Positions 40,120-40,635 of a DNA stretch of 64,000 bases are shown in pieces. The stretch is from the human T2T-CHM13v2.0 reference genome, Homo sapiens. The notes under the pieces are model-generated. The model did not search any database, was not told the origin of the DNA, and saw only the letters and a list, made by a program, of their open reading frames with translations. The stretch lies in assembly GCF_009914755.1 (NCBI RefSeq), contig NC_060943.1. One strand, written 5' to 3'. Within the stretch, counting starts at the first letter, position 1. Every line of letters begins with the position of its first letter. A program made the position numbers and the translations under genes.

Positions 40120-40635
40120 TGGTGTCCTTATTTCTTGGGAAAGGATACAGAGGGTCAGAGAGGCGCCCCAGCTTGTGCAGGAATGCATTCCTGAGATCTG
40201 GCCTGGCCGTGGTCACTGGAGTGTTTACTCTGCTTACAGGGTCTGGTGTAGTGGGGGATGGCTGGGTAGGAACGTGCGGGCTATAAAGCCAGACCCCAGG
40301 TGTCAGTGCGGTTCAGAAAGCAACTAGCACAGCCATGCCCAGGCCAGGACCCGTGACACAGCGATGCTCTCAGATGCTGCTGATGTTACAGATGTTGTTG
40401 GGGGCACCCTGAGGGGGCACCCTGACTCTGCAGGTGAGAACCTTCTGGGGTTCCTAGGACCCTCGGACAAGCACTCTGATCCGGATGACTCCAGGTCCCA
40501 GGAGTTGCAGAAACGCCACCAGGACCTTCAGAGCACCAGTTAGACAAGGAGAGCCAGGAGGAGCTGGGCCCCAACCTCATCCAAAAGCACAGGTGAGCTC
40601 TGAGACCTCCACCCCCAGGACAGCCCCCATGTCTA
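40120..40635 (+). pseudogene. Degenerate partial duplicate of GDF15 promoter, exon 1 and intron start (GDF15 pseudo-exon 1)
   Basis: Collinear with 44077-44664: TATAAAG 40282, GCACAGCCATGCCC with ATG 40335, 66/96 nt identity over the first 32 codons without gaps, TGA at codon 26, donor AG|GTGAGC at 40592/40593. Confidence 0.85.

What the first reader, a model, noticed from the sequence alone, without database searches (positions are those of the whole stretch)
40209..40290. Promoter motifs of the dead copy are far better conserved than its coding part: possible shadow promoter/enhancer
Seen: GTGGTCACTGGAGTGTTTACTCTGC (40209-40233) is 24/25 identical to GTGGTCATTGGAGTGTTTACTCTGC (44194-44218), the TATA box is intact, and 19/21 nt around the ATG match, whereas the coding sequence is ~69% identical. 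The block holds a forkhead core TGTTTAC (established FOXA/FOXO motif); the single change destroys the inverted CCAAT (ATTGG to ACTGG). The Sp1 GC boxes are not retained. The p53 site over the ATG keeps one half (AGCCATGCCC) but loses the other core (AGGCCAGGAC). Inference: selection or gene conversion preserved a rewired second promoter/enhancer that could give GDF15 tissue-specific (e.g. placenta, liver, prostate) control.
Basis: partly seen in the sequence, partly recalled or inferred. Interest (0 to 1): 0.75.

Follow-up and report, generated by a model that had tools for sequence, protein, structure and literature searches.

The report
Decayed duplicate of GDF15 promoter and exon 1
About 4 kb upstream of human GDF15 lies an old, decayed 0.6-kb copy of the gene's own promoter and first exon; its well-kept 25-base block is no more than chance would leave, but a fossil RNA copy on chromosome 1 shows that this second promoter once fired.

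Summary
The 25-mer is 24/25 identical, TATAAAG is kept, 19/21 bases match around the ATG, and the GC boxes, the inverted CCAAT and one p53 half-site are lost.

The segment 40120-40640 is a DNA-level duplicate of GDF15 from about -250 to intron +64 (44050-44675). It is 70.8% identical over 511 aligned columns.

The claim of exceptional conservation fails. A 25-column window with at least 24 matches arises in 18-21% of permutations. Promoter versus coding identity is 74% versus 66% (Fisher P=0.08; 0.30 without the block).

CpG observed/expected is 0.23, against 0.59 in GDF15. The reading frame is broken.

New here: a processed retrocopy on chromosome 1, with poly(A) tail and target-site duplication, joins a dead-copy-like exon to the PGPEP1 terminal exon 27846-28090. 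The exon part is 78.6% identical to the dead copy and 63.6% to GDF15. Its 5' end lies about 15 nt downstream of the start site the TATA box predicts. So the duplicate promoter and splice donor were once active. The exon order is opposite to the genomic order, which I cannot explain.

Since that split the dead copy and the retrocopy have changed equally (18 versus 20 unique changes), as expected under neutrality.

RefSeq already lists 39920-40592 as an alternative GDF15 first exon. Present-day promoter or enhancer activity could not be tested here.

The parts
40120..40640 (+). Decayed DNA-level duplicate of the GDF15 proximal promoter, exon 1 and the first ~50-60 nt of intron 1 (the 'dead copy')
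   Evidence: Alu-masked blastn gives 40194-40582 vs 44179-44578 at E=3.6e-36 and 40120-40174 vs 44077-44131 at E=4.5e-6. Global alignment gives 362/511 aligned columns identical, with 98 gap columns.
40209..40233 (+). 25-mer, 24/25 identical to 44194-44218. It holds TGTTTAC (40222-40228); the single change turns ATTGG into ACTGG.
   Evidence: Permutation P for such a window is 0.18-0.21.
40282..40288 (+). Retained TATAAAG
   Evidence: 9/10 identical with 44273-44282.
40303..40309 (+). TCAGTGC, homologous to the TCAGTCC that holds the annotated GDF15 start (44303). It is the predicted start of the duplicate: the A at 40305 lies 23 nt after the T of the TATA box.
   Evidence: Read. The GDF15 start comes from the hub's RefSeq table. 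That it is the start site of the duplicate is inferred.
40335..40412 (+). Remnant of the GDF15 start codon and signal-peptide frame: ATG, 25 codons, then TGA at 40410-40412. The rest of the exon is scattered over three frames.
   Evidence: Translation.
40587..40598 (+). Retained 5' splice site CAG|GTGAGC (exon end 40592). It is used by the RefSeq alternative GDF15 first exon.
   Evidence: hub's RefSeq table (exon 39920-40592).
39920..40592 (+). RefSeq alternative GDF15 first exon. It starts inside the minus-oriented Alu and contains the whole dead promoter and exon.
   Evidence: Hub's annotation. Alu extent.
39815..40120 (-). Alu inserted into the upstream part of the duplicate
   Evidence: masked interval 39822-40118 plus the T run.
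39154..39172 (+). Upstream-most piece of the duplicate (CTCCAAAAAGACTACCAGC, matching 44052-44070). Nested Alu insertions separate it from the rest, and AAGGACTACCAGG at 39799-39811 looks like their second target-site copy.
   Evidence: 39154-39184 vs 44052-44082: 80.6%, 31 nt, weak at E=0.089. Read. The target-site interpretation is inferred.
39047..39068 (-). Inverted ~21-nt copy of the same parent stretch (44061-44081), next to a truncated Alu. This points to a complex upstream breakpoint.
   Evidence: 39048-39068 vs 44081-44061, minus strand: 95.2%, 21 nt, E=0.089, so weak. Read.
44050..44675 (+). Parent segment: GDF15 from about -250 to intron +64
44062..44611 (+). 5'-extended GDF15 exon of the alternative RefSeq transcript. 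Its acceptor (pyrimidine tract then AAAAAG|ACTCCC) lies at the 5' edge of the duplicated segment.
   Evidence: Hub's annotation.
27846..28090 (+). PGPEP1 alternative terminal exon (acceptor TTTCTTTCTAG|G, AATAAA-type signal, poly(A) site). It is the source of the 3' half of the chr1 retrocopy.
   Evidence: 74% identity, E=1.4e-31; alignment; 27848-28086: 74.3% over 241, E=2.2e-40.

Best explanation
The segment 40120-40640, plus a short piece at 39154-39172 cut off by later Alu insertions, is an old small DNA-level duplicate of GDF15. It covers the parent from about -250 to intron +64 and sits about 4 kb upstream of it, roughly 2 kb if the Alus are subtracted.

After the duplication the copy worked as its own TATA-driven promoter with its own 5' splice site. 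An RNA that started about where the TATA box predicts, and that used that donor, was spliced, polyadenylated and retro-copied into chromosome 1 in a primate-lineage ancestor.

Since then the copy has decayed like neutral DNA.
- Its reading frame is broken.
- It has lost two thirds of its CpGs.
- It has lost the GC boxes, the inverted CCAAT and half of the p53 site.
- It has accumulated as many changes as the chr1 pseudogene.

What remains is a TATA box, an Inr-like start and a strong donor. That is enough for occasional use as an alternative, non-coding 5' exon of GDF15, which is the RefSeq model 39920-40592 spliced to 44062.

The 24/25 block is most likely a chance survivor. It contains no CpG, which helps it survive.

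Shown here: the homology and its limits, the decay, the retrocopy anatomy, the sister relation and the equal rates.

Inferred: past initiation at the TATA-directed site, the dates, and the weak or absent present function.
For: 1. DNA-level duplicate. Homology covers untranscribed promoter, exon and intron. No other copy exists in the genome apart from the chr1 element. GDF15 exon 2 has no second copy.

2. The block is within chance: P=0.18-0.21, and P=0.23-0.34 for any window size. Promoter versus coding identity gives P=0.084, or 0.30 without the block.

3. Decay.
- CpG count is 10 versus 32. Identity is 49% at CpG columns and 74% elsewhere.
- CpG observed/expected is 0.23 in the dead copy, 0.23 in the chr1 copy and 0.59 in GDF15.
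- There is a TGA at codon 26, and the frame is scattered.
- No GGGCGG or CCAAT remains.
- GC-box stretches are 7/12 and 15/23 identical.

4. Retrocopy at G000:C1:26480348-26480920, minus strand.
- The 5' part is 78.6% identical to 40315-40587 and 63.6% to GDF15.
- The 3' part is 74.3% identical to 27848-28086.
- The join lies within about 1 nt of the annotated acceptor 27846 and within 5 nt of the donor at 40592.
- An 18-nt A run follows directly where the PGPEP1 transcript ends.
- It is flanked by a 19-22-nt target-site duplication.

5. Its 5' end matches 40320 +/-4. That is 38 nt after the TATA T and about 15 nt after the predicted start.

6. Three-way count over 249 sites.
- 60 sites group the dead copy with chr1.
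- 20 changes are unique to chr1 and 18 to the dead copy.
- They share a 6-nt insertion and a 3' deletion relative to GDF15.

7. The donor CAG|GTGAGC is intact and the RefSeq exon ends on it (hub table).
Against: - No expression, chromatin or cross-species data could be consulted, so present activity is open.
- The hub's table lists five further RefSeq enhancer features in the window without coordinates. One could overlap the dead copy.
- The equal-rate test covers only 40329-40587, not the promoter part that the finding concerns.
- A permutation P of about 0.2 does not exclude constraint on one short element. If the 25-mer is a real element of the GDF15 promoter, its survival in the copy could still be functional.
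- The retrocopy could be 5'-truncated, so its start near the predicted site could be coincidence.
- The retrocopy's exon order (donor at 40.6 kb joined to an acceptor at 27.8 kb, upstream on the same strand) does not fit a simple transcript of the present arrangement. Its parent might therefore have been a lost third copy rather than this one.
Confidence: 0.6

Rival explanations
1. The FOX-core and TATA module of the duplicate is kept by selection. It serves today as a rewired second (shadow) promoter or enhancer that gives GDF15 tissue-specific output, for example in placenta, liver or prostate.
For: - The 24/25 block with TGTTTAC, the intact TATAAAG and the intact donor.
- A RefSeq GDF15 transcript uses the exon (hub table).
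- Past promoter activity is shown by the retrocopy.
- A 2025 review states that the elements driving placental GDF15 expression remain unknown (PMC12542990, passages).
Against: - The block is within chance.
- Motif loss is the rule. GC boxes, CCAAT, the E-box and a p53 half-site are lost; only TATA and the FOX core are kept.
- CpG observed/expected is 0.23, the same as in a retro-pseudogene.
- The exon part evolves at the pseudogene's rate.
- The RefSeq model starts upstream of the TATA box, in an Alu.
- The published GDF15 distal elements I found lie elsewhere (PMC7192610, passages).
- No paper on FOX or NF-Y binding at this block came up.
Confidence: 0.17
2. A short gene-conversion patch from the functional promoter refreshed the 25-mer in the copy.
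For: One stretch stands out at 96% identity between flanks of 68-69%.
Against: - The longest identical run is 17 nt. A run that long occurs in 32-35% of permutations.
- The stretch is far shorter than usual mammalian conversion tracts. The two copies are only about 70% identical, which from general knowledge disfavours conversion.
- With another gap scheme the best window moves to the intron part.
Confidence: 0.03
3. The chr1 retrocopy did not come from this copy. It came from a lost sister copy, or a lost larger tandem arrangement, in which a dead-copy-like exon lay upstream of a PGPEP1-type terminal exon. In that case the fossil says nothing direct about the promoter at 40209-40290.
For: The exon order of the fossil is opposite to today's genomic order.
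Against: - No second copy of either part exists in the window or the genome.
- The flanks of the dead copy are unique DNA.
- The dead copy and the fossil share derived indels and 60 derived sites.
Confidence: 0.2

Closest known systems
Canonical GDF15 (NAG-1/MIC-1) proximal promoter and exon 1
   Same: Homologous over about 0.6 kb. It shares the TATAAAG, the Inr-like start, the 25-mer with TGTTTAC, the start-codon context and the 5' splice site. A review describes a conserved TATA-like motif and Sp1/EGR1/p53/CHOP sites in this promoter (PMC7299427, passages).
   Different: The copy lacks the GC boxes, the inverted CCAAT and the second p53 half-site. It has a third of the CpGs and no open frame. 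From the same review, basal activity of the real promoter was attributed to the Sp-family sites, which are exactly what the copy lost.
Alternative non-coding first exons that arise from local duplication of a gene's 5' end
   Same: A duplicated promoter and exon 1 upstream of the parent, with its donor spliced into the parent gene (RefSeq exon 39920-40592 joined to 44062; hub table).
   Different: The annotated start lies in an Alu upstream of the duplicated TATA box. The copy shows no sign of constraint.
Published distal GDF15 enhancers: E1 (about -20 kb, in the PGPEP1 3'UTR) and E2 (about -11 kb) of PMC7192610, and the rs888663 enhancer of PMC12967388
   Same: They are upstream cis-elements of the same gene, in the same intergenic or 3'UTR interval.
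   Different: They lie at other positions. They are p53/ATF3-bound elements validated by CRISPRi or reporter assays (passages read). The only TGCTGACTCA in 20000-47500 is at 32743, inside RefSeq enhancer 31594-32793. The dead promoter has no GATA, MARE or KLF motif. It is therefore probably not the erythroid GATA1/TAL1/KLF1/NFE2 module of PMC4270484, for which the text gives no coordinates.
Chimeric processed retrocopies of intergenically spliced transcripts of neighbouring genes (PIPSL is the example I recall; not checked here)
   Same: An intron-less join of exons from two adjacent genes, with a poly(A) tail at the 3' gene's own site and a target-site duplication.
   Different: The 5' exon lies downstream of the 3' exon in the genome, so a plain read-through transcript cannot give this order.
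Pseudogenes derived from circular RNAs (recalled; not checked here)
   Same: A downstream donor joined to an upstream acceptor.
   Different: The fossil ends in an A run exactly at the genuine PGPEP1 cleavage site, after the AATAAA-type signal. That points to a linear polyadenylated RNA.

Membership tests
DNA-level partial gene duplicate (unprocessed pseudo-exon) | Homology extends into untranscribed promoter and into intron, not only exon | tested here: met
   Upstream part is 61/88 identical and intron part 39/48 identical. Blast hits on both sides of the exon.
DNA-level partial gene duplicate (unprocessed pseudo-exon) | Coding capacity lost | tested here: met
   TGA at codon 26; the remainder is split over three frames.
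Shadow promoter or enhancer kept by selection | Sequence constraint above the neutral expectation | tested here: not met
   Permutation P is 0.18-0.34. Exon part: 18 versus 20 unique changes against a retro-pseudogene. The promoter part itself lacks a third sequence, so the test is limited to the paralogue pair.
Shadow promoter or enhancer kept by selection | Overlapping transcription-factor site content with the primary element | tested here: not met
   TATAAA and TGTTTAC are kept. GGGCGG (two copies), CCMCRCCC, CAGCTG and CCAAT are lost. The motif strings are recalled consensus forms.
Shadow promoter or enhancer kept by selection | Open chromatin, initiation or reporter activity in some tissue | not testable with these tools
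   No expression or chromatin data are available. Five RefSeq enhancer features of the window were not itemised in the hub's table.
TATA-box core promoter | TATA box about 25-30 nt upstream of an initiator-like start | tested here: met
   TATAAAG at 40282, and TCAGTGC with its A at 40305, 23 nt downstream. The parent spacing is 29 nt.
TATA-box core promoter | Evidence of initiation at that place | tested here: inconclusive
   The fossil retrocopy begins at the equivalent of 40320 +/-4. This fits past use, but 5' truncation cannot be excluded. There are no present-day data.
Processed (L1-mediated) retrocopy: the chr1 element | Exon-exon join without intron, poly(A) tail after a poly(A) signal, flanking target-site duplication | tested here: met
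   The join is at the annotated acceptor 27846. An 18-nt A run follows the GCAAATAAAACAG signal. The target-site duplication is 19 and 22 nt.
Gene-conversion tract | A run of identity longer than expected from the overall divergence | tested here: not met
   The longest run is 17 nt, with P=0.32-0.35.

The most novel reading that the evidence does not exclude
The duplicated promoter was, and may still be, a live second GDF15-type promoter in primates.

Its transcript once carried an open 86-codon signal-peptide/propeptide frame. That frame is still unbroken in the chr1 fossil.

The transcript was joined to the terminal exon of the upstream neighbour PGPEP1, against genomic order. That would be a fossil either of trans-splicing or of a lost chimeric gene.

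If the FOX-TATA module still initiates in placenta or liver, it could be one of the still-unknown elements behind primate-type GDF15 expression.
Probability: 0.12. Interest if true: 0.65.

Novelty: new member of a known kind. Interest (0 to 1): 0.35.

Why it matters
GDF15 is a clinically important stress and pregnancy-sickness hormone. A 2025 review says the elements behind its placental expression in primates are unknown (PMC12542990, passages).

This piece of the locus is a relic of GDF15's own 5' end, and RefSeq already counts it as an alternative first exon. That bears on three practical matters:
- how variants and transcripts between PGPEP1 and GDF15 are read;
- how short reads and probes for exon 1 are interpreted;
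- which upstream elements deserve functional tests.

The result here lowers the priority of the 25-mer as a selected element.

The chr1 fossil is a small but unusual piece of evidence. It dates promoter activity of a duplicate that is now dead, and it records a splice between neighbouring genes in the wrong order.

Tried and rejected
- **Chance similarity.** Rejected: E=3.6e-36 after Alu masking.
- **A larger tandem duplication including the PGPEP1 terminal exon.** This would make the fossil's exon order collinear. I looked for a second copy of 27846-28090, or any other homology, in 40641-44077 and in the whole window. Beyond self-hits there were only two weak hits, to 56187-56262 and 48967-49065. 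The flanks 40971-41591 and 38200-38750 are unique in the genome, apart from an ~85-nt dispersed repeat at about 41502-41587. The model is not supported by what is left, but a lost polymorphic arrangement cannot be excluded.
- **L1 template switching as the origin of the chimera.** Judged unlikely, because both ends of the join sit at splice sites.
- **Circular-RNA origin.** Judged unlikely, because of the A run at the genuine poly(A) site.
- **The dead copy as the erythroid module of PMC4270484.** Judged unlikely, since it has no GATA, MARE or KLF motifs. A search of 8 of that paper's supplementary files for GDF15 gave 0 hits, and 3 files were not searched, so the module's position stays unconfirmed.
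- **Literature.** Searches turned up no paper describing this duplicate, an upstream GDF15 first exon, a GDF15-related retrocopy, or FOX/NF-Y binding at the block. The transcript identifiers were recalled and may be wrong.
- **Other calls.** The first unmasked blast was swamped by Alu hits. Three of five alignment schemes did not run, because the script stopped on an empty alignment. A 10-kb stretch of chr1 fetched was not used.

Full report
**What is there.**
- 40209-40233 and 44194-44218 differ at one base of 25. TATAAAG is present at 40282 and at 44274. 40327-40347 and 44327-44347 match at 19 of 21 bases.
- A first unmasked comparison was swamped by Alu hits. After I masked every Alu-like stretch of the window (27,454 bases), the only significant similarity between 30000-43000 and 43000-49000 was 40194-40582 versus 44179-44578 (E=3.6e-36) and 40120-40174 versus 44077-44131 (E=4.5e-6). 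A weak continuation runs into the intron, 40591-40635 versus 44614-44664.
- The global alignment of 40120-40640 with 44077-44675 has 362 identical of 511 aligned columns (70.8%), plus 98 gap columns.
- The similarity covers untranscribed promoter, the 5'UTR, all of exon 1 and the first ~50-60 nt of intron 1. This is therefore a DNA-level duplicate, not a retrocopy.
- Upstream it is cut by a minus-oriented Alu (39815-40120) and by an older Alu cluster. A short further piece at 39154-39172 matches 44052-44070. An inverted ~21-nt copy of 44061-44081 sits at 39047-39068, next to a truncated Alu. Both matches are short and weak (E=0.089).
- The duplicated unit is thus about 44050-44675, roughly 0.6 kb.
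- The DNA on either side of the copy (38200-38750 and 40971-41591) is single-copy in the genome, apart from an ~85-nt dispersed repeat.

**Is the 25-mer more than chance?** No.
- By segment, identity is as follows:

| Segment | Identical / aligned | Identity |
|---|---|---|
| Upstream part | 61/88 | 69% |
| 25-mer | 24/25 | 96% |
| 25-mer to TATA | 30/44 | 68% |
| TATA stretch | 8/9 | 89% |
| TATA to ATG | 33/45 | 73% |
| Coding part | 167/252 | 66% |
| Intron part | 39/48 | 81% |

- When the 511 match/mismatch columns are permuted, a 25-column window with at least 24 matches appears in 18.3% of 20,000 trials. It appears in 20.8% when CpG and non-CpG columns are permuted separately. An exact run of at least 17 appears in 32-35%.
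- A scan over all window sizes from 15 to 40 gives P=0.34. With a second gap scheme it gives P=0.23, and the best window then lies in the intron part. Only 2 of 5 schemes ran.
- The promoter as a whole is 156/211 identical, against 167/252 for the coding part (Fisher P=0.084). Without the block it is 132/186 (P=0.30). The promoter also carries more gap columns.
- Of the motifs scanned in the parent promoter, only TATAAA and TGTTTAC survive in the copy. Two GGGCGG, one CCCCGCCC, CAGCTG and the inverted CCAAT are gone. The GC-box stretches are 7/12 and 15/23 identical.
- The block contains no CpG. CpG columns are 49% identical and the others 74%.
- The block is unique to the two sites in the genome, so it is not part of a repeat family.

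**Signs of decay.**
- The copy has 10 CpGs against 32 in the parent.
- CpG observed/expected is 0.23, against 0.59 in the parent, and exactly the value of the chr1 retro-pseudogene.
- From the retained ATG at 40335 the frame runs 25 codons to a TGA at 40410-40412. The recognisable GDF15-like peptide pieces then lie in three different frames.
- The stretch over the ATG is 17/20 identical to the parent. The second half reads AGGCCAGGAC instead of GGGCAAGAAC. That this is the p53 site, and that the change breaks its core, rests on recalled knowledge of the consensus.
- The chr1 copy shares the changed half, so this loss is older than the retrocopy.

**A third copy, and what it tells.** A search of the window's genome with the dead copy found three places. 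They are the dead copy itself, GDF15 exon 1 (66% identity), and a place on chromosome 1 that is closer than GDF15 (78% identity, minus strand). The chr1 element has the anatomy of a processed retrocopy.
- *5' part.* About 275 nt is 78.6% identical to 40315-40587 and only 63.6% identical to 44320-44578.
- *3' part.* This runs straight on into about 245 nt that is 74.3% identical to window 27848-28086. According to the hub's table, that stretch is an alternative terminal exon of PGPEP1 (27846-28090).
- *The join.* It reads CCAAAAG(T)|GAAAAACC. It lies within about one base of the acceptor TTTCTTTCTAG|GAAAAAACC at 27846, and within five bases of the dead copy's donor (CCAAAAGCACAG|GTGAGC).
- *The 3' end.* Similarity ends where the PGPEP1 transcript ends, after the shared GCAAATAAAACA signal, and an 18-nt A run follows.
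- *Flanks.* The whole unit is flanked by a 19/22-nt direct repeat.
- *Other copies.* No further copy of either half exists in the genome. GDF15 exon 2 has none.

**Relationship of the three copies.** I counted 249 sites aligned in all three.
- 143 are invariant.
- 60 group the dead copy with chr1 against GDF15.
- 20 are unique to chr1, 18 are unique to the dead copy, and 8 differ in all three.
- The two also share a 6-nt insertion and a deletion at the 3' end of the exon.

The fossil therefore descends from the dead-copy lineage. Since the split, the dead copy's exon has changed as fast as an unconstrained retro-pseudogene.

The Jukes-Cantor distances are 0.21 (dead copy to chr1) and 0.46-0.48 (either of them to GDF15). 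With recalled neutral rates for the human lineage (my inference, wide error), the retrocopy is roughly 40-60 million years old. The duplication is roughly 80-130 million years old, so it may predate primates.

**What the fossil says about the promoter.** The retro-copied RNA began at the equivalent of 40320 +/-4. That is 38 nt after the T of TATAAAG and about 15 nt after the base homologous to the annotated GDF15 start. It used the copy's donor or a site within 5 nt of it.
- For an RNA of about 520 nt, a start this close to the predicted site is what a near-full-length copy of a TATA-initiated transcript would give. A transcript starting hundreds of bases upstream would land there only through a lucky truncation.
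- I therefore take the duplicate promoter and donor to have been active in the germ line or early embryo at that time.
- The chr1 copy keeps the GDF15 frame open for 86 codons, up to a TGA at the join, although its start codon reads ACG. The exon's frame was probably still intact when it was copied. With expected stop-gain rates this is not significant on its own.

**What remains unexplained.** In today's genome the donor (40592) lies 12.5 kb downstream of the acceptor (27846) on the same strand. A simple transcript cannot join them in that order.
- I found no second terminal exon and no other remnant of a larger duplication.
- The candidate explanations are a since-lost tandem arrangement or polymorphism of the block that holds both parts, trans-splicing of an orphan 5' exon to PGPEP1 pre-mRNA, or a lost sister copy.
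- Template switching by the L1 enzyme, and a circular-RNA origin, fit the splice-site precision and the genuine poly(A) end poorly.

**Present-day role.** RefSeq (hub table) has a second GDF15 transcript. Its first exon is 39920-40592, and it is spliced to a 5'-extended exon starting at 44062.
- The donor and acceptor sequences fit this model.
- That exon starts inside the Alu, upstream of the duplicated TATA box. It contains the whole dead promoter as transcribed sequence.
- The annotation therefore shows that the donor is used. It does not show that the TATA box initiates.
- In such a transcript the remnant ATG would open a 25-codon upstream frame.

The published upstream elements of GDF15 that I could find lie elsewhere.
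- p53/ATF3-bound enhancers lie about 11 kb and about 20 kb upstream, validated by dCas9-KRAB (PMC7192610, passages).
- A reporter-validated enhancer lies at rs888663 (PMC12967388, passages).
- p53 peaks with enhancer marks lie in the PGPEP1-GDF15 region (PMC4287438, passages).
- A primate-conserved erythroid module bound by GATA1/TAL1/KLF1/NFE2 is given without coordinates in the text (PMC4270484, passages; a supplement search gave no hit, and 3 files were not searched).
- The dead promoter has no GATA, MARE or KLF motif. The only TGCTGACTCA in 20000-47500 lies at 32743, inside RefSeq enhancer 31594-32793. The erythroid module is probably that element.
- The hub's list mentions five more RefSeq enhancer features without coordinates, which I could not see.

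**Verdict.**
- The object is a relic duplicate of the GDF15 5' end. It was once a working promoter and first exon, as the chr1 fossil newly shows.
- It now looks neutral and survives in annotation as an alternative non-coding first exon.
- I found no paper describing the duplicate, the fossil, or FOX/NF-Y binding at the block.
- Whether it still initiates transcription or acts as an enhancer needs expression, chromatin and cross-species data that these tools do not hold.

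Noticed in passing
L002 (G000:C1:26480348-26480920, minus strand): This is a chimeric processed retrocopy. It joins a GDF15-exon-1-like exon of the dead-copy lineage to the PGPEP1 terminal exon, in the order opposite to the genome. The GDF15 frame is still open for 86 codons up to a TGA at the join, although the start codon now reads ACG.
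   Followed up: yes
window 39047-39172: An inverted ~21-nt copy of 44061-44081 lies next to a truncated minus-oriented Alu (39070-39145). It is followed by the direct copy CTCCAAAAAGACTACCAGC. This suggests a complex, possibly replication-based, upstream breakpoint of the duplication. Both matches are short (E=0.089).
   Followed up: partly
window 44050-44062: The acceptor of the 5'-extended GDF15 exon (44062) of the alternative RefSeq transcript coincides with the 5' edge of the duplicated segment. The same acceptor-like stretch is present in the copy at 39154-39164.
   Followed up: no
window 32743-32752: The only TGCTGACTCA (an NFE2/MARE-type motif, recalled) between 20000 and 47500 lies inside RefSeq enhancer 31594-32793, about 11.5 kb upstream of GDF15. 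It is a likely seat of the published erythroid and p53-bound distal element.
   Followed up: partly
window 41502-41587: An ~85-nt stretch between the dead copy and GDF15 has at least 9 dispersed relatives in the genome at 75-80% identity. It is an old interspersed repeat that I did not name.
   Followed up: no
L012 (G000:C17:17662175-17662199): This is the only other genome match to the 25-mer at up to 3 mismatches. It has 3 mismatches and I take it as chance.
   Followed up: no
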